This document shows, one piece after another, positions 2,153-41,900 of a stretch of 64,000 nucleotides of DNA. Each line of letters begins with the position of its first letter. The stretch's first letter is position 1. The stretch is from positions 32,001-96,000 of IMG/VR virus record IMGVR_UViG_3300035684_000001; one strand, written 5' to 3'. Below the pieces are notes generated by a model. The model did not search any database. It worked only from the letters and a program-made list of their open reading frames with translations, and had not been told where the DNA came from. This DNA is from a virus. A program made the translations under genes and the position numbers.

Positions 2153-2629
2153 ATGAAAGCACCGTTTGACTTCTTTTTTGTGCCAAAAGAATACTTAGAA
2201 ATTGATGATATTGACGTTAATGTTCAACACCTTTTCGATAAGGTCGCATCCCTAGAATTTTATAAAGCGATCAGCGCAATCGCCGAAAGATACAATATTG
2301 ACTATGTGTTAACAAGAACCTGCGTAATAAAAGTTAAGAAATCGCAACCTACATCTACGCTCAATTTGTATGCAATTTGTAAAAATGTCTTTGAGGGTGA
2401 TGAGGAAGATAATTGGGCAGCGCGACACTTAATTCTGCGTGTATATCTAATGTGTAAACTTTACTTACGGTCAAAATATTGCTCATTGTTACATCGCCAC
2501 ACTGGTAAATGCAAATTTTCCTTTCGGACCAGGCTCAAACAAACTAACCAGTACGCACATTTCAGCGAAGTTAGTTGCGTGGAAGTAGTGGTCGGGTGCC
2601 CCCGGTGCTTCTATCCACCTTCCGTTTGA
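2153..2629 (+). CDS. Hypothetical protein (3' end overlaps terL convergently)
   Basis: ATG ORF with plausible composition over the first ~105 aa; last 141 nt overlap terL. Confidence 0.5.
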   Translation: MKAPFDFFFVPKEYLEIDDIDVNVQHLFDKVASLEFYKAISAIAERYNIDYVLTRTCVIKVKKSQPTSTLNLYAICKNVFEGDEEDNWAARHLILRVYLMCKLYLRSKYCSLLHRHTGKCKFSFRTRLKQTNQYAHFSEVSCVEVVVGCPRCFYPPSV

Positions 2630-4510
2630 CTGTCGATCGCTCGTAATGAAGTGATACAAAAAATTTCCTTTGTCTTTGGCATTGTAGCTCAAGTCTTCAG
2701 GAAGGTGGAACAACCCTCGGTAGATCCGATCGCGGACGCTATCTAGTCCAAAGGTGCGGTCGATCGAGTAGATAGTAAACTCGGTTTCTTTCGCCGTACT
2801 CTTAACTTTCCGGGTAGTCCGCTTGAACTGTTCCTTCATGGAAACTTGATCGAAAAGATAAACTTGCCCCTTCTTTTGAACCCGATCGCCCTTCTTGGAC
2901 ACGCTCGCTCCCGTCGGCAAATGCAGGAGTGCATACTCCGTGGCCAGTTGAATTTCCGGTTCGGAATCCATGCCGATTAAATCGACTTCGTACTGTAGGG
3001 CGATCGCCTCGGCATCTTGGATCGTTCCGAGTTCTCCAAACCAAATGTTGTTCACTCTGGCGGTTTTCCACCAGTCATTTTTAGAACCATGAAAATTTAG
3101 ATACCATTTTTGAACGATTCCGTAATTCGGTCGCCCCTGATCTAGTCCCAGGACGGTTAAAGTAGGAATTTCGGCAAAATCGGGGTGCGATCGCCCGACG
3201 CAGCTCAGGAGTCTGCCCAGGTCAATCTTGCCGCCGGACAGAGAAATAGATTCTCCGAGCCTCTGCTGAATTTCATCTCTAGGGTTGTCCGTTGTGAACA
3301 ACCGTCGCAATCTTTCAGGCGCAGAAAACAGCAAAGATGCCAGCACCGGAAATTCAAGGGCTACTGTTTCGCGAACAATTTTGCGTTCCCGCGTCACTTC
3401 ATCGTTTAAATCTCTCAATGTAACACCCGATCTCGTACAAGCAAATTTTCCGTCGGTGATCGCATCTCTCGGTATTTCCTCGGTGCAGGACTGACAGCCT
3501 ATATAAGCCGAGTCGATTGCCCGCTCCTTGTCGTCTCCTTGTAGTTGCCAGTCTTCAGTGTTTGCTGGATTGGGCGATCGGTGGAACCACTTCAGCGGTC
3601 TGCCCGCAATATCGAAAAATCGCAGTTCTTCCGTGTCGGACTCTTTGAACAGAGCCGGACGCAAAAAATTGCCAGACTGGTTTTCGGTAGAAAAAGGAAC
3701 TAAAAATTGAGCGGTTTGGCAGTGGGGGCATTTAACCAGCCACTGAAAGGAATATTTTGCCCGTTTCATTTCAGAGTCGAGAATCGATCCTTCGTAGGAT
3801 GGAGTTGAACCGGCTCGGACAAGTTTGGTCGGCATTCGAGACGCGGCCATCCGACTGATGGCAATATCAAGTACGCCCTTGGGCCACAAGCTAAATTCGT
3901 CGGCTAAAATCGCGCAAGCTGTAAACGATCTGAGCGTAGCTGGGGCTTGTTCTGCTACAGTCTTTGATTTGACGCAGGCATAGAAAAACGAAATCTTTGT
4001 GCCGGCAACCGTTATCGAGGTTTTGTTGTCTATGTCTTCGCGCCCTGTCGCCCCGTGCCGATCACGGTTCAATTTCTGAATTGGCTCGCAGTAGTCTAGC
4101 GCTGGCTGAATCCGGGAGCCAACCATGTCCCGAAGTTTTTGTTGTTCCTCAAATCCAAAACCGATGGGTGATCGCAGGTAGCCGGCATAGAATTCGGCTG
4201 TGGCGACCAATCCTTCAGAGTAACCTACTTGAGCAGCTTTTTTAATGACTTCTTTTTCTAGCCAGGGACAGCCTATTGCCAGATAAACCTCTTCTAAAAA
4301 TACCTCGTCCCAAGAAAGCGGTTCTCCAGAACTTGTTCGGTGGTGTTCTTTGACCCACTGCAAGTAAACGTCGCCTCCCCCGTCGTACCAGCTAGCGATT
4401 GCTGCTTCGCGGGCGATCGCTGTCTCATCGACAAACTTTTCTCTCTGTTTTTTGTTAGACTTTTTTTGGCGGGCGATCGCCCGCGAGGCGCGACCTAAAC
4501 TGGGAGCCAT
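2489..4510 (-). CDS. terL: Phage terminase large subunit, GpA (lambda)-type
   Basis: KAAQVGYSE Walker A, ILADE Walker B, GSTPS coupling motif, CPHC/CQSC zinc ligands, LGLDQG nuclease motif. Confidence 0.92.
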   Translation of the reverse strand: MAPSLGRASRAIARQKKSNKKQREKFVDETAIAREAAIASWYDGGGDVYLQWVKEHHRTSSGEPLSWDEVFLEEVYLAIGCPWLEKEVIKKAAQVGYSEGLVATAEFYAGYLRSPIGFGFEEQQKLRDMVGSRIQPALDYCEPIQKLNRDRHGATGREDIDNKTSITVAGTKISFFYACVKSKTVAEQAPATLRSFTACAILADEFSLWPKGVLDIAISRMAASRMPTKLVRAGSTPSYEGSILDSEMKRAKYSFQWLVKCPHCQTAQFLVPFSTENQSGNFLRPALFKESDTEELRFFDIAGRPLKWFHRSPNPANTEDWQLQGDDKERAIDSAYIGCQSCTEEIPRDAITDGKFACTRSGVTLRDLNDEVTRERKIVRETVALEFPVLASLLFSAPERLRRLFTTDNPRDEIQQRLGESISLSGGKIDLGRLLSCVGRSHPDFAEIPTLTVLGLDQGRPNYGIVQKWYLNFHGSKNDWWKTARVNNIWFGELGTIQDAEAIALQYEVDLIGMDSEPEIQLATEYALLHLPTGASVSKKGDRVQKKGQVYLFDQVSMKEQFKRTTRKVKSTAKETEFTIYSIDRTFGLDSVRDRIYRGLFHLPEDLSYNAKDKGNFLYHFITSDRQSNGRWIEAPGAPDHYFHATNFAEMCVLVSLFEPGPKGKFAFTSVAM

Positions 4511-23214: not shown

Positions 23215-23262
23215 TAAAACAATAGCTCCAACTACAATTTTGTAGTTGGAGCTATTGTTTTA
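23215..23262. terminator. Near-perfect 48-bp palindrome / bidirectional terminator
   Basis: TAAAACAATAGCTCCAACTACAA-tt-TTGTAGTTGGAGCTATTGTTTTA. Confidence 0.8.
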
Positions 23263-23341: not shown

Positions 23342-23414
23342 CAGCAAGAGCCGGATTTGAACCAACGCTTACCACTTCGCAGTGGTCGTGTTATCCAGAC
23401 TACACCATCTCGCT
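23342..23414 (-). tRNA. tRNA-Arg(GCG)-like gene with a 6-nt anticodon loop (possible pseudo-tRNA); no encoded CCA
   Basis: AGCGAGA/TCTTGCT acceptor, GTGT/ACAC D stem with GGA (A20), ACCAC-TGCGAA-GTGGT anticodon arm, GTTGG-TTCAAAT-CCGGC T arm, G73. Confidence 0.85.
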
Positions 23415-23418
23415 CTAT

Positions 23419-23533
23419 TGGTACTTGCAAGAATCGAACTTGCAGCCAGGTGTCCATCGATCCTGTATCCGTTGAGAGGTATTTCACTCTCTCTGTTGGC
23501 AGCGCTTAAGCTGTTCCATCACCAGATAGCACC
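23419..23533 (-). ncRNA. 115-nt tRNA-like RNA with an expanded central domain
   Basis: GGTGCT/AGTACC acceptor-like stem, canonical T arm GCAAG-TTCGATT-CTTGC, discriminator A; extra hairpins GAGAG/CTCTC and CAGG/CCTG. Confidence 0.7.
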
Positions 23534-23535
23534 AT

Positions 23536-23602
23536 AGTGGTTAATCCTGTAACACGGATAATAGACGTTTCGCCCGCACCGTTACTGCCTCGGTTCGCCA
23601 CC
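23536..23602 (-). ncRNA. Putative 67-nt multibranch RNA at the 5' end of the RNA operon
   Basis: Closing GGTGG/CCACT with three internal hairpins: ACCG/CGGT, GGGCG/CGTCT, ATCC/GGAT. Confidence 0.4.
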
Positions 23603-23607
23603 AAACA

Positions 23608-23616
23608 AATATAGCA
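23608..23616 (-). promoter_or_regulatory. Extended -10 promoter (TG-C-TATATT) for the non-coding RNA operon
   Basis: About 6 nt upstream of the first structured element; the same GTGCTA.. pattern occurs at 25265, 25926 and near 58278. Confidence 0.6.
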
Positions 23617-38920: not shown

Positions 38921-41900
38921 TTGGTACAATTCAATGAAACTAATATATCACGCTACGCAGGCCACCCCACCCAATGGGGCGGCTTTTGTTGTTTGGGGGG
39001 AATTTTGGAAGAGAGTCTGGATCGGTACGGCTTAGTCGGTCAGTTTAATTTCTTAGTTGCAGACGGCAGTTTTTCTTCCATGAAATCTGTTGTCAAACAC
39101 CTGAGCAACATGGAGAAGGCTGTTGCAGACGCTTCCAAATCCGTAGACAGCAACGGGCTAGCAGGTCAATTTAAATCTGCAGCCCGATCGCTCGACACCT
39201 CCTCCGGCAACATGGCAAAGAGCTTGCAGCCTTTAAAAGCTGAGTTTAGGGTGTTAAAAGCTACTGCGGCAAATATTGATTTTGGAGATGTGCTGGACGA
39301 TCGCCAGTTCAAAAAAGCTACAACTGCTGTCAACACTTACGTTAAAAATCTCAAAGAATTAAGAAAGCAAGTTCAGGGCGAAACGGCAGCGGAGCGGGAG
39401 TTTACGGAAGTCCTCAAACGGCAGCAGCGCGTTATTAAGGACAAACTTGCTTTGCACGATGCTGAGCGCAAGGCTGCGTTTTTCTCTCAAAGAAAGGGTG
39501 AGTTTGGGGCGCTGCAACAAGTTGGGAATATAGCACTCAATCCGCTGAAGCAAGCCGGAAAAGAAGCCATTCAAGTTTTTGCTGGTTTTGACGACAAGAT
39601 GAGCGCGGTGGCAGCTATCTCGCGATCAACGGGCAAGGATTTAGATCGGTTGCGGGGTAAGGCTAAGTTATTGGGGGCGACGACTCGATTTACCGCAGGA
39701 GAGGCTGCGGATGCCGAAAAATACTTGGCGGCAGCGGGCTTTAACGCTCAACAGATTTTTGCAGGCGTTCCTGCAACTTTGGATTTAGCTTCGGCGGGAC
39801 AACTGGGATTGGCGGAATCGGCTGACATCGCTTCCAACGTGCTCAGCGGGATGCGGATGGGCGTTAGCGATTTAGGTCACATTACCGATGTTATGGCGTT
39901 GTCGGCTGCTAGCGCAAATACCAACATTCAGCAGTTGGGTGTAGCGATGAGCTACGCTGCTCCCAATGCTGCACTGTTTGGTGCGGGAATAGAAGAAACC
40001 TCTGCTTTAATTGGGGTGATGTCAAATGCGGGGATTCAGTCCGACAAGGCAGGAACGGCTGCAAGAGGAGCTTTTTTAAAGTTGGCCGCACCTACGGTCA
40101 GAGGTCGAATGGCTTTAATTCAATATGGAATTTCGCTGACCGACACCAGCGGTAAAATGCGGAATATCGTTGATGTGATGCAGGATATCGGTACAAACCT
40201 GCAATTAGATCCAGCTTCTTTAGACTCGATAATTCAAGCTGGCGATGACGTAGAAAAACTGGGACAACTTGCCCAGTCAAAGCAAATTTCTGCATTAAAA
40301 GATATTTTTGGCACAACTGGAATTTCGGGGGCATCGGCCGCAATCAGCCAAATGCAAGAATTTACTCGTCTGAGTTTGGCGGGTAGGGGCAGCTCTTTTG
40401 CTATTGAAGACTACGAAAAATTATTTAAATCTCAGGGTATTGATAAATTAGCCACAGATAAAGATGTTTTCGCTTCGCTGCTGCGAGAAGCGGGCAGCTA
40501 TCAAGATGCGCTACAAAAATTAGATGCTGCTACGATCGCCTTAGTTAAATCCAATGAATATTTAGGAAATCTTTCGAGCACCCAGCTAAGTCAATTGTCA
40601 GGATATTTCCAAATACCCGAAGGTGAGAATTTATTTGATGCGATTTTGGCGACTGCTCCCGACGCGAATGCGGCAGTCAGCAAGCTAACCTCAGCGATGG
40701 GCGAATTAGGGATTGAATTTAAGGGAAAATCCGGCGCAGCGAAAACGATGGCGCAGGTGATGGAAAACAACCTGGCCGGTTCTTTCCGATCGCTCGGTTC
40801 TGCGTTTGAAGCAGTTCAGGTCAATTTGATCGAACCGATCGCCCCAATCGTGCGGGCGATCTCCGACACATTAACTAAGTTGCTGCTGGCGATCGCCAAC
40901 CTTCCTTCCCCAATTCGAGGATTGATTGCCGGAGTTGGGGTGCTTACCGCAGGGTTTGCAGCGGTATCGGTTGCAGTCGGAACAGTTGGTGTAGTGCTGT
41001 TTGGATTTTCGCAAGCTGCGGCAACCGCGACTGCTGCGGGAATTGCACTGCAAGCTAGCGTGATTCCGCTGACCGGATTTTTCCCGGCGGCGATGGCGGC
41101 TTTTGAGGGTACGGCGTCCAACCCGTTCAAGACTGCCTCGTTTGCTGCGGAAGCTTTTTCGGACACGATCGCCTCTACGTCCAAAGATGTCAACTTGGGA
41201 TTGAACGGGATTGCTCGAAATATTGCGGTAGTTTCGAGGTCGCTGATTTCGATGTCGGTATCGTTTGCTCTGTCTCCAATGGGAATCGCGATTGCAAGCT
41301 TCCTTGCACTTAATGCTATTTTGCAACAAATTAACCCAGAAATTAATTTGCTGGGTACTATTTTCAGCGCCGTCAGTTCCATCGCTGGTTTTGCAGTTGG
41401 AATAATTCAAGGATTTGGCGAAGCGCTGCTCGCTGCACTAGATGTTCCAACATCTGTTGCAGGTTCGATGTTGACCGCTCCGTTTGCAGCAGTCAGCAGC
41501 GCTATAGAATATGCAACTGTGGCTTTTGAAACTTGGCGGAAATCCGGGCGGGCGATCGGGGTCGATATTTTTAAATTTGTAGCGCAGCCGTTTCAGCTTG
41601 CAGGCAGGGCGATCGAGACTTCATGGAACTTCACACTGAACTATATCAAGGGCTTGCTGACGCCTTTTGCTGGCTTCGTAGCTCGGATTGGCAAATTGCT
41701 GCAAGGGGGTCTAGCTGAGGCATCGCCGGGTCCGACCTACATGATTCGGGAAAAGTGGGATTACACGATCGCCTTTTTGGAAAAGCTGTTCACCAGAATT
41801 AGAAACGCTGCAGGTTTAGTTAATCGGGCTTTTTTAGGTATTGGAAGTGTAACAGAATCCTCGAAGATGGAAGCTCAGCAACAAATATTGCAAGGGGCGA

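What the first reader, a model, noticed from the sequence alone, without database searches (positions are those of the whole stretch)
23419..23533. 115-nt tRNA-like RNA with an extra domain and a tmRNA-tag-like reading frame
Seen: acceptor-like stem (extended by CUAU/AUAG flanks), perfect T arm, AUC-UGGU-GAU mini D arm, CAGC-UUAAGC-GCUG arm (again a 6-nt loop) and two additional hairpins. The insert reads GCC AAC...CUG GCU GCA = ANRESEIPLNGYRIDGHLAA, starting AN and reaching LAA like tmRNA tags. However, there is no stop codon, no G3-U70 pair and no pseudoknots. Inference: a novel tRNA-mimic class or an extremely reduced tmRNA derivative; the tag resemblance may be chance.
Basis: partly seen in the sequence, partly recalled or inferred. 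Interest (0 to 1): 0.75.

Follow-up and report, generated by a model that had tools for sequence, protein, structure and literature searches.

The report
tRNA-shaped small RNA on mobile elements
The 115-nt stretch is a real gene for a small RNA that copies the upper half of a tRNA but cannot decode; it belongs to an undescribed family passed among phages and prophages of filamentous cyanobacteria, and its job is unknown.

Summary
The 115-nt element (minus strand, 23533 to 23419) is real. It belongs to a family of about 95-123-nt RNAs that Rfam and ARAGORN miss; I collected 25 copies, 2 of them doubtful. Six helices are kept by compensatory changes (27 of 30 pairs; 92% paired against 33-52% in slid controls). 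They are a 6-bp acceptor, a 2-3-bp D-like stem with a UGGU loop, an anticodon-like hairpin, two extra hairpins, and a 6-bp T arm with the loop GUUCGAUUC.

The window lies in a 189-kb cyanophage. Its nearest relative (TerL 96% identical) lacks the RNA. Other copies sit in Microcoleus-family genomes and metagenomes, mostly at one end of small inovirus-like prophages (Rep_trans, Zot-like, PadR, TraX with or without DUF192). Three lie beside a Prim-Pol gene. It looks like an accessory cassette exchanged among mobile elements.

In leaderless copies a TATAAT-like box ends 4-8 nt before the RNA. The window copy has a 69-nt structured leader and is followed 4 nt later by a tRNA.

The hairpin loop varies from 3 to 9 nt and the discriminator varies. 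The 'tag' frame meets stops in homologues. So it is neither a decoding tRNA nor a tmRNA. Best reading: a non-decoding tRNA mimic acting in trans, target unknown.

The parts
23608..23616 (-). Promoter-like extended -10 box (TGcTATATT), about 6 nt before the leader
   Evidence: Read. The same box (TGTTATATT or TATAAT-like) stands at the same place in the other copies. The simple -35/-10 scan finds no full sigma-70 site, so this rests on conservation only.
23534..23602 (-). 69-nt structured leader between the promoter box and the tRNA mimic, with U at position -1
   Evidence: Seven copies carry a leader. It has a closing helix GUGG(C)/(G)CCAC and a first hairpin with 3 pairs changed on both sides. 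The 3' half of the window's leader differs from the others. The 17 other copies in the list lack a leader.
23419..23533 (-). The tRNA-mimic RNA (115 nt) as a whole
   Evidence: Model R1 scores it 125 bits and R2 111.8 bits. Covariation is shown.
23528..23533 (-). Acceptor 5' strand GGUGCU. It pairs with 23420-23425 (AGUACC). Base 23419 is the discriminator A, and no CCA is encoded.
   Evidence: All 6 pairs change on both sides somewhere in the family and 96.6% of cells pair.
23518..23527 (-). D-like mini arm AUC-UGGU-GAU
   Evidence: The outer pair is U-A in 11 copies and G-C in 8. The inner pair is C-G in 17 and U-G in 3. UGGUG is nearly invariant.
23497..23518 (-). Anticodon-like arm: UGG/CCA, a 2-nt bulge, then CAGC-UUAAGC-GCUG
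   Evidence: A-U changes to C-G in close copies. Both helices covary in the 25-copy set. Loop length is 3-9 nt across the family.
23474..23491 (-). Extra hairpin 1 (GAGAG-UGAAAUAC-CUCUC)
   Evidence: All 6 pairs change on both sides somewhere in the family. The window copy has lost one base on each strand of the stem, so pairing is kept.
23466..23473 (-). Conserved junction AACGGAUA (family consensus YCGAUAYAGG runs into hairpin 2)
   Evidence: Conserved as sequence. The pairing with bases 7-11 that the single-sequence fold proposes is not supported, because a G-to-C change breaks it.
23447..23465 (-). Extra hairpin 2 (CAGG-loop-CCUG)
   Evidence: C-G and U-A occur in 10 copies each at the closing pair, and 94.7% of cells pair. 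The loop sequence is not conserved.
23426..23444 (-). T arm: 6-bp stem and loop UUCGAUU
   Evidence: 94.6% of cells pair and 4 pairs change on both sides. GUUCGAUUC is nearly invariant. The 6-bp acceptor and 6-bp T stem together give a 12-bp stack.
23342..23414 (-). Downstream tRNA with a 6-nt anticodon loop UGCGAA, 4 nt after the mimic
   Evidence: Rfam tRNA 44.8 bits. ARAGORN reports 'tRNA-??? (cg)'. Only its 3' half is shared with the sister phage.
23216..23261 (-). Strong hairpin-plus-U terminator that closes the unit

Best explanation
This is a gene for a stable, non-decoding tRNA mimic. It belongs to an undescribed family of small RNAs carried as an accessory cassette by mobile elements of Microcoleus-type cyanobacteria: inovirus-like prophages, a Prim-Pol element, and this 189-kb siphophage.

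Shown:
- The fold is under selection on this strand.
- The upper half of a tRNA is kept: a 6-bp acceptor stacked on a 6-bp T stem (12 bp in all), a canonical T loop, and a GG-bearing D-like loop.
- The lower half is replaced by three hairpins and a conserved junction.

Inferred:
- In the window it is transcribed from its own -10 box as leader, mimic and tRNA in one transcript.
- RNase P cuts before G1, where U stands at -1 in all seven leader-bearing copies.
- The 3' end is made by RNase Z, or by RNase P cleavage of the next tRNA, and a CCA tail is added.
- The tRNA-like top gives processing and stability, much as engineered tRNA scaffolds do.
- The RNA then acts in trans through host factors, because no protein travels with it.

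My preferred guess for the trans action, at about 0.25-0.3, is a decoy or sponge for a host factor that recognises the tRNA acceptor and elbow, such as a tRNA-directed defence toxin. My confidence that this is a real structured RNA gene of this family is about 0.9. Confidence in the whole statement, including maturation and trans action, is lower.
For: Fold:
- 9 compensated pairs in 7 close copies.
- 27 of 30 compensated pairs in 25 copies, 92.2% paired against 33-52% in slid controls.
- RNAalifold finds the same helices independently.

Strand: 62 G-U cells against 16 A-C cells.

Transcription: a TATAAT-like box ends 4-8 nt before the RNA in 14 of 17 leaderless copies. Where the leader is missing in a close copy (L005), the box moves up to the RNA.

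Not decoding:
- Loop length is 3-9 nt.
- The discriminator is A, U, C or G.
- The best match of the tRNA/tmRNA clan is 6.8 bits, so the tRNA model scores no higher than that.

Accessory and mobile:
- One copy in this phage and none in the whole sister phage, whose TerL is 96% identical.
- 12 of 144 genomes of the Microcoleus family carry it, against about 1 of 150 in a phylum-wide sample.
- Copies lie next to TraX or DUF192 in about 15 loci and next to Prim-Pol in 3. Some of these loci are flanked by housekeeping genes (HSP90-family and histidine-biosynthesis genes).
- Only the roughly 200-bp RNA cassette is shared between those elements and this phage.

Selection in the phage copy itself: hairpin 1 lost one base on each strand, so pairing is kept.
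Against:
- The promoter is inferred from a conserved -10 box only, and the sigma-70 scan finds no -35/-10 pair.
- Processing by RNase P, RNase Z and the CCA enzyme is inferred from shape, not shown.
- The 25-copy alignment was fitted to the model, which favours the structure.
- Nothing points to a particular target. The decoy idea rests only on the RNA being conserved in shape rather than in acceptor sequence, and on its riding on unrelated mobile elements.
- In most prophage copies a gene converges on the RNA's 3' end within about 10 nt, which could mean a cis role.
- In inovirus-like carriers the same strand would be packaged as single-stranded DNA, so part of the covariation could serve DNA folding.
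Confidence: 0.55

Rival explanations
1. It is a DNA-level or single-stranded-DNA element of the inovirus-like carriers, such as an attachment site, a complementary-strand origin or a packaging signal. The copy in this double-stranded-DNA phage would then be a passenger picked up by recombination.
For: - The gene sits at the very end of integrated inovirus-like elements.
- tRNA-shaped genes are classic integration sites.
- The RNA-sense strand is the coding strand of the Rep_trans and Zot-like genes in L005, so it would be the packaged strand.
- In the window, the breakpoint with the sister phage falls in the anticodon loop of the adjacent tRNA.
Against: - No integrase was found by Pfam in the L005 element, and no repeat of the RNA lies at its other end.
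- Both acceptor strands covary together, which an attachment site made of a 3' tRNA fragment would not need.
- G-U pairs are frequent, 62 cells against 16 A-C.
- A -10 box tracks the 5' end in most copies, also when the leader is lost.
- The copy in a dsDNA phage keeps its pairing through a two-sided deletion.
- Copies also occur in a Prim-Pol context.
Confidence: 0.12
2. It acts in cis on the neighbouring convergent gene (TraX, DUF192 and others), as an antisense RNA, a roadblock or a two-way terminator. The tRNA shape would serve only for stability.
For: In about 15 of 25 loci the stop codon of TraX or DUF192 lies within about 0-10 nt of the RNA's 3' end. Two further loci (L030, L034) have an unrelated convergent ORF at the same place.
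Against: - The window copy has no convergent gene. It is followed by a tRNA on the same strand.
- TraX and DUF192 are absent from this phage.
- The fold is kept in contexts that lack such a neighbour.
Confidence: 0.1
3. It is an aberrant but working tRNA (class II, Leu-UAA-like, with a giant variable region) that is charged and used in translation or recoding. The neighbouring 6-nt-loop tRNA would work the same way.
For: - The loop UUAAGC can be read as U33-UAA-G37-C38.
- The acceptor-T stack is 12 bp.
- The T loop and GG loop are canonical.
- The next gene is a tRNA that also has a 6-nt loop.
Against: - Across the family the loop is UUAAGC, UUAAAU, UUUAGC, UUCGGC, GUAAGA or other forms of 3-9 nt.
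- The discriminator and acceptor sequence vary freely.
- There is no full D stem.
- The best match of the tRNA/tmRNA clan is 6.8 bits, so the tRNA model scores no higher.
- ARAGORN does not call it at its default threshold, even with introns allowed.
Confidence: 0.04
4. It is a reduced tmRNA: alanyl-charged, with SmpB, adding the tag ANRES...HLAA.
For: The window copy reads Ala-Asn at the start and Leu-Ala-Ala at the end of an open frame. The tRNA-like top with a weak D arm recalls the tmRNA tRNA-like domain.
Against: - There is no stop codon in this copy. The closest homologues stop after 5 codons, and other copies stop after 2-12 or shift frame.
- Pair 3-70 is U-A here and varies in the family.
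- The best tmRNA model scores 6.8 bits against a threshold of 84.
- ARAGORN finds no tmRNA.
- The nested helices account for almost the whole 115 nt.
Confidence: 0.01

Closest known systems
Class II tRNAs (Leu, Ser, Tyr; long variable arm)
   Same: The ends pair as an acceptor stem directly abutting a T arm. The T loop is GUUCGAUUC. There is a GG-bearing loop after the acceptor. Extra structure lies between the anticodon-like arm and the T arm. No CCA is encoded, as is usual for cyanobacterial tRNA genes (my knowledge).
   Different: The stack is 6+6 rather than 7+5. The D stem has only 2-3 bp. There are two hairpins plus a conserved junction (about 50 nt) in place of one variable arm. The loop is 3-9 nt with no conserved anticodon. 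The discriminator varies. tRNA models and finders do not recognise it.
tRNA-like domain of tmRNA
   Same: A tRNA top half with a reduced D arm, joined to a non-tRNA body.
   Different: There is no conserved G3-U70, no conserved tag frame, no room for pseudoknots, and no model match.
Bacterial Y RNAs YrlA and Yrn1 (PMC4201824)
   Same: Non-coding RNAs of bacteria and phages with T-arm, D-arm and acceptor mimicry. M. smegmatis YrlA is cut by RNase P and receives CCA. Yrn1 even has a 6-nt 'anticodon loop'.
   Different: In YrlA the 'acceptor' is an internal stem-loop lying between the D and T stem-loops. Here the two ends of the RNA form the acceptor. No YrlA model match. No Ro60/TROVE gene was found in this phage or in the Microcoleus genome that holds three copies.
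Viral and cellular tRNA-like RNAs that are processed but not charged (gammaherpesvirus 68 vtRNAs, mascRNA) and engineered tRNA scaffolds
   Same: In these (from my knowledge, not tested here) a tRNA-like fold recruits RNase P, RNase Z and the CCA enzyme and stabilises an RNA that does not decode. That is the working principle I propose here.
   Different: Those are eukaryotic or artificial. There is no sequence relation. Processing of this RNA has not been shown.
Phage immunity RNAs C4 (P1/P7) and CI (P4)
   Same: Small phage or prophage RNAs released from a leader transcript by RNase P, with a tRNA-like substrate shape (my knowledge).
   Different: The Rfam scans, which cover all curated families, give no match. 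No complementary target sites were identified. Most copies here have no leader.

Membership tests
tRNA (decoding) | Scores above threshold with the Rfam tRNA covariance model (29 bits) or is called by ARAGORN | tested here: not met
   No tRNA hit. The best tRNA-clan hit is 6.8 bits. ARAGORN finds nothing at its default threshold, with or without introns allowed.
tRNA (decoding) | A 7-nt anticodon loop with a conserved anticodon | tested here: not met
   The loop is 6 nt here and 3-9 nt with varied sequence across 25 copies.
tRNA (decoding) | A T arm with G53-UUCRAUY-C61 stacked on the acceptor to give 12 bp | tested here: met
   GUUCGAUUC is nearly invariant. The 6-bp T stem and the 6-bp acceptor both covary.
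tRNA (decoding) | A D arm (3-4 bp) with G18 G19 | tested here: inconclusive
   Only a 2-3-bp stem around UGGU. The outer pair is U-A in 11 copies and G-C in 8, with 5 not paired.
tRNA (decoding) | Aminoacylation and use on the ribosome | not testable with these tools
   The discriminator (A, U, C or G) and the acceptor sequence vary, which argues against one synthetase identity.
tmRNA | A G3-U70 pair for alanylation | tested here: not met
   U3-A70 in the window copy. Across the family the pair is UA 7, AU 7, GU 5, GC 4, CG 2.
tmRNA | A conserved tag reading frame ending in a stop | tested here: not met
   There is no stop in the window copy. Homologues read ANREL*, ASRGM* and AR*, or are shifted by indels.
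tmRNA | A match to tmRNA models or the ARAGORN tmRNA search | tested here: not met
   beta_tmRNA scores 6.8 bits against a threshold of 84. ARAGORN's tmRNA search at its default threshold calls nothing here.
tmRNA | Pseudoknots PK1-PK4 | not tested
   No pseudoknot search was run. The nested helices already use most of the 115 nt.
YrlA / bacterial Y RNA | The tRNA-like 'acceptor' is an internal stem-loop between the D and T stem-loops | tested here: not met
   Here the 5' and 3' ends themselves form the covarying acceptor. The YrlA layout is taken from PMC4201824.
YrlA / bacterial Y RNA | A Ro60 (TROVE) partner gene in the genome, usually adjacent | tested here: not met
   PF05731 was not found in the phage record or in Microcoleus genome G002. 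The control search does find it in Deinococcus.
YrlA / bacterial Y RNA | A match to the curated model | tested here: not met
   No hit at E up to 10.
C4/CI phage antisense RNAs | A match to the curated model, plus complementary target boxes upstream in the same transcript | tested here: not met
   No Rfam hit. Target boxes were not searched systematically.

The most novel reading that the evidence does not exclude
The RNA is a tRNA-shaped decoy that unrelated mobile elements of filamentous cyanobacteria (inovirus-like prophages, a Prim-Pol element, a 189-kb siphophage) exchange to blunt host immunity aimed at the tRNA acceptor or elbow. An alternative reading, given its fixed place at the prophage end, is an RNA cofactor for integration of elements that carry no recognisable integrase.
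Probability: 0.2. Interest if true: 0.85.

Novelty: new variant of a known kind. Interest (0 to 1): 0.62.

Why it matters
Non-decoding tRNA mimics are few in bacteria (tmRNA, YrlA). This one has unusually clear covariation for a small family. It has a distinct build, with a 6+6 stack, a minimal D arm and a three-hairpin body. It lives on mobile elements, with no protein travelling with it.

It is missed by Rfam, ARAGORN and homology searches of phage databases, so similar cassettes are probably being overlooked in phage and prophage annotation. That three unrelated kinds of element in one host family carry it suggests a portable benefit. This can be tested directly in culturable Microcoleus strains.

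It is also a natural example of an RNA displayed on a tRNA scaffold.

Tried and rejected
- blastn of the locus against 50,697 phage records: no match.
- Exact 24-mer of the T arm in viral contigs: none.
- Relatives of the upstream ORF (207 aa, HTH): none in viral contigs and none in the carrier loci.
- TerL against isolated phages: no match.
- Three GC-rich metagenome hits to my pattern (L008, L009, L012) have no T arm. I set them aside as chance.
- Weak model hits at window 40111-40213 (inside the tape-measure ORF), at L033 (inside a 795-aa ORF) and at L036 are doubtful.
- The long-range helix 7-11 with 63-67 of the single-sequence fold is not supported. It never covaries and a G-to-C change breaks it.
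- The CUAU/AUAG flank pairing is not conserved.
- Search for attachment-type repeats of the RNA at the far end of the L005/L007 element: none of 10 nt or more.
- Proteins shared between carrier elements and this phage: none.
- Cobalamin-riboswitch idea for the leader: one copy (L016) gives 25 bits, below threshold. The match rests on sequence upstream of the cassette, and no other locus scanned matches. It reads best as an insertion next to or into a riboswitch.
- A second pattern scan of viral contigs: no further copies.
- Close host homologue of the neighbouring tRNA in Microcoleus G002: none.

Full report
WHAT IS THERE. The finding lies on the minus strand, 23533 to 23419. The window is part of a 188,553-bp virus record. 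The record has 112 copies of GCGATCGC, a terminase large subunit at window 2489-4510 and a 6,319-aa ORF, so it is a large tailed cyanophage.

Read 5' to 3', the RNA has these parts:
- an acceptor GGUGCU pairing with AGUACC;
- a small stem AUC/GAU around UGGU;
- a hairpin CAGC-UUAAGC-GCUG, lengthened by UGG/CCA;
- hairpin 1, GAGAG/CUCUC;
- a junction AACGGAUA;
- hairpin 2, CAGG/CCUG;
- a T arm UGCAAG-UUCGAUU-CUUGCA;
- the discriminator A.

Four bases later a tRNA begins (23414-23342). It scores 44.8 bits with the Rfam tRNA model, and ARAGORN reports a 6-nt loop. A strong terminator follows at 23261-23216.

Nothing curated recognises the 115 nt. Rfam gives no hit at gathering score or at E up to 10. 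The best tRNA-clan hit is a tmRNA model at 6.8 bits. ARAGORN calls nothing at its default threshold, even with introns allowed. The single-sequence fold is only modestly better than shuffles (z = -2.0).

IS IT MORE THAN CHANCE. Yes, and the proof is comparative. A pattern made of the D-like loop and the T loop found one viral contig (L005). A pattern allowing stem changes in the hairpin found four metagenome contigs with true copies (two of them the same sequence) and a Microcoleus genome. That genome holds three copies.

On seven close copies, 97.9% of cells pair and 9 pairs changed on both sides, spread over the acceptor, the hairpin, both extra hairpins and the T stem. Slid controls gave 0-1 such pairs.

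A covariance model built from these found more distant copies: 6 of 41 genomes of the genus and 12 of 144 of the family. In samples of about 150 genomes each from the order and the phylum, one other genome matched in each, weakly in the phylum sample.

On 25 copies (two of them doubtful), 92.2% of cells pair and 27 of 30 pairs show compensatory change. The covariation score is 0.68, against 0.22 in shuffles and at most 0.20 in slid versions. That alignment was fitted to the model and so leans towards it. However, RNAalifold recovers the same five helices by itself.

G-U pairs outnumber A-C mismatches 62 to 16, which fixes the strand. The helix 7-11 with 63-67 that the single-sequence fold draws is not supported.

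WHAT THE FAMILY LOOKS LIKE. These features are constant:
- a 6-bp acceptor abutting a 6-bp T stem, so the stack has the 12 bp of a tRNA;
- the loop GUUCGAUUC;
- UGGUG after the acceptor;
- the junction YCGAUAYAGG.

These features vary:
- the acceptor sequence;
- the discriminator (A, U, C or G);
- the loop of the anticodon-like hairpin (UUAAGC, UUAAAU, UUUAGC, UUCGGC, GUAAGA and others, 3-9 nt);
- the loop of hairpin 2.

So the 6-nt loop is not a family trait and there is no anticodon.

The open frame that reads AN...LAA exists only here. The nearest homologues read ANREL-stop or ASRGM-stop, and others stop after 2-12 codons or are shifted by indels. Pair 3-70 is U-A here and varies in the family. 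The tmRNA reading is therefore rejected, and so is an ordinary tRNA with a random insert: the 'insert' is the most clearly covarying part.

IS IT TRANSCRIBED. In 14 of 17 leaderless copies a TATAAT-like hexamer ends 4-8 nt before the first base. Most copies are followed at once by a U-rich stretch.

Seven copies, the window's among them, carry a leader of about 70 nt between the same box and the RNA (here TGcTATATT at 23616-23608, leader 23602-23534). The leader has a closing helix and a covarying first hairpin. U stands at -1 in all seven.

In L005, a close relative that lacks the leader, the box sits directly before the RNA. This behaviour fits a promoter, not a DNA site. A simple -35/-10 scan finds nothing in the window. 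I could obtain no reads, so transcription remains an inference.

WHERE IT LIVES. The nearest phage (188,942 bp, TerL 96% identical) is collinear with this one but has no copy anywhere. Homology there resumes exactly in the anticodon loop of the neighbouring tRNA. The segment holding the 207-aa HTH gene, the RNA and the 5' half of the tRNA is replaced by about 4.2 kb. That replacement includes an HNH homing-endonuclease-like ORF. So this is an accessory gene in a mosaic region.

Elsewhere, about 15 of 25 copies have a TraX gene (PF05857), with or without DUF192, converging on the RNA's 3' end within about 10 nt. The 8.5-kb contig L005 and its 70-81% identical relative L006 carry Rep_trans, a Zot-like ATPase and a PadR-like regulator. 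That is an inovirus-like element, with the RNA gene at its very end. The flanks of three of these TraX-linked loci are ordinary chromosomal genes: an HSP90-family gene, a histidine-biosynthesis gene and DUF4332.

Three copies sit between a 496-aa ORF and a Prim-Pol gene. Others are solitary. Only the roughly 200-bp cassette is shared with the phage, and no protein is.

HOW IT MOST LIKELY WORKS. Shown: a fold under selection on this strand, which keeps what tRNA-processing enzymes measure (the acceptor-T stack and the elbow loops) and replaces the decoding half with a conserved three-hairpin body.

Inferred from established knowledge of tRNA maturation: RNase P cuts before G1 in leader-bearing copies. 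The 3' end is made by RNase Z, or in the window by RNase P cleavage of the next tRNA, and CCA is added. The tRNA-like top thus gives defined ends and stability, and the body carries the function.

Because the cassette moves alone between unrelated elements and keeps its fold in each, a trans action through host factors is the best reading. A decoy for a factor that recognises tRNA shape is my preferred guess, and it is only a guess.

Rivals are a DNA or single-stranded-DNA role in the inovirus-like carriers, a cis role on the convergent gene, a charged aberrant tRNA, and a tmRNA. Their odds are given in the rival section.

COMPARISON WITH KNOWN FAMILIES. The RNA works like known non-decoding tRNA mimics, but it is a member of none.
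- YrlA places its acceptor-like stem as an internal stem-loop between the D and T stem-loops and works with Ro60 (PMC4201824). Here the ends form the acceptor. No TROVE gene is found in the phage or in the Microcoleus genome, while the control genome does show one.
- tmRNA and decoding tRNA fail on tested defining features.
- Two literature searches found no description of such an RNA.

VERDICT. 'New tRNA-mimic class' is supported and 'tmRNA derivative' is rejected. The RNA is a new variant of a known kind, of good interest, with its function open.

Noticed in passing
window 23342-23414 (-) and L003 1490-1545: The tRNA next door has a 6-nt anticodon loop (UGCGAA). The sister phage keeps only its 3' half, from the anticodon loop onward (there CUGCAAA, 7 nt), plus about 75 nt downstream at 90% identity. 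The recombination breakpoint therefore lies exactly in the loop. No close homologue of this tRNA is found in Microcoleus genome G002.
   Followed up: partly
L004 6055-6900 (-), sister phage G001: The roughly 4.2-kb segment that replaces the RNA cassette in the sister phage encodes an HNH_3 plus multi-HTH protein that looks like a homing endonuclease. This fits a mosaic accessory region.
   Followed up: partly
L005 (8.5 kb), L006, and loci in Microcoleus-family genomes: These are small inovirus-like elements of filamentous cyanobacteria carrying Rep_trans, a Zot-like ATPase, PadR, TraX and sometimes DUF192. They are present in several copies per genome and often sit at contig ends. Some are integrated beside chromosomal genes such as an HSP90-family gene and a histidine-biosynthesis gene. 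No integrase was recognised in L005.
   Followed up: partly
L016 1491-1652 (-): Upstream of one Microcoleus copy the sequence matches the core of a cobalamin riboswitch (25 bits, below the 31.5 threshold). It looks as if the cassette or element inserted into or beside a riboswitch.
   Followed up: partly
window 23534-23602 (-) and the matching stretch in six other copies: A leader of about 70 nt with its own closing helix and a covarying hairpin precedes the mimic in one subgroup. If RNase P releases it, it may be a second small RNA.
   Followed up: partly
L011 1-132 (-): A HEARO (HNH endonuclease-associated) RNA match of 69.7 bits, cut off by the contig end, about 1.8 kb from a copy of the mimic.
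   Followed up: no
L005 17-119 (+): About 180 nt upstream of the mimic lies a stretch with a perfect anticodon arm (loop UUUGUAA, Thr-UGU-like) and a T arm, but no matching 5' acceptor strand. It may be a truncated host tRNA gene at the element's edge. It scores 11 bits with model R1.
   Followed up: no
whole phage record (G000): GCGATCGC (HIP1) occurs 112 times in 188.5 kb. Only two tRNA genes are called in the record: the odd one here and a tRNA-Met at record position 136376.
   Followed up: no
L030 1619-2200 (-) and L034 1622-2227 (-): In two solitary copies, an unrelated ORF of 193-201 aa with no Pfam family converges on the RNA's 3' end at the same distance as TraX does elsewhere.
   Followed up: partly
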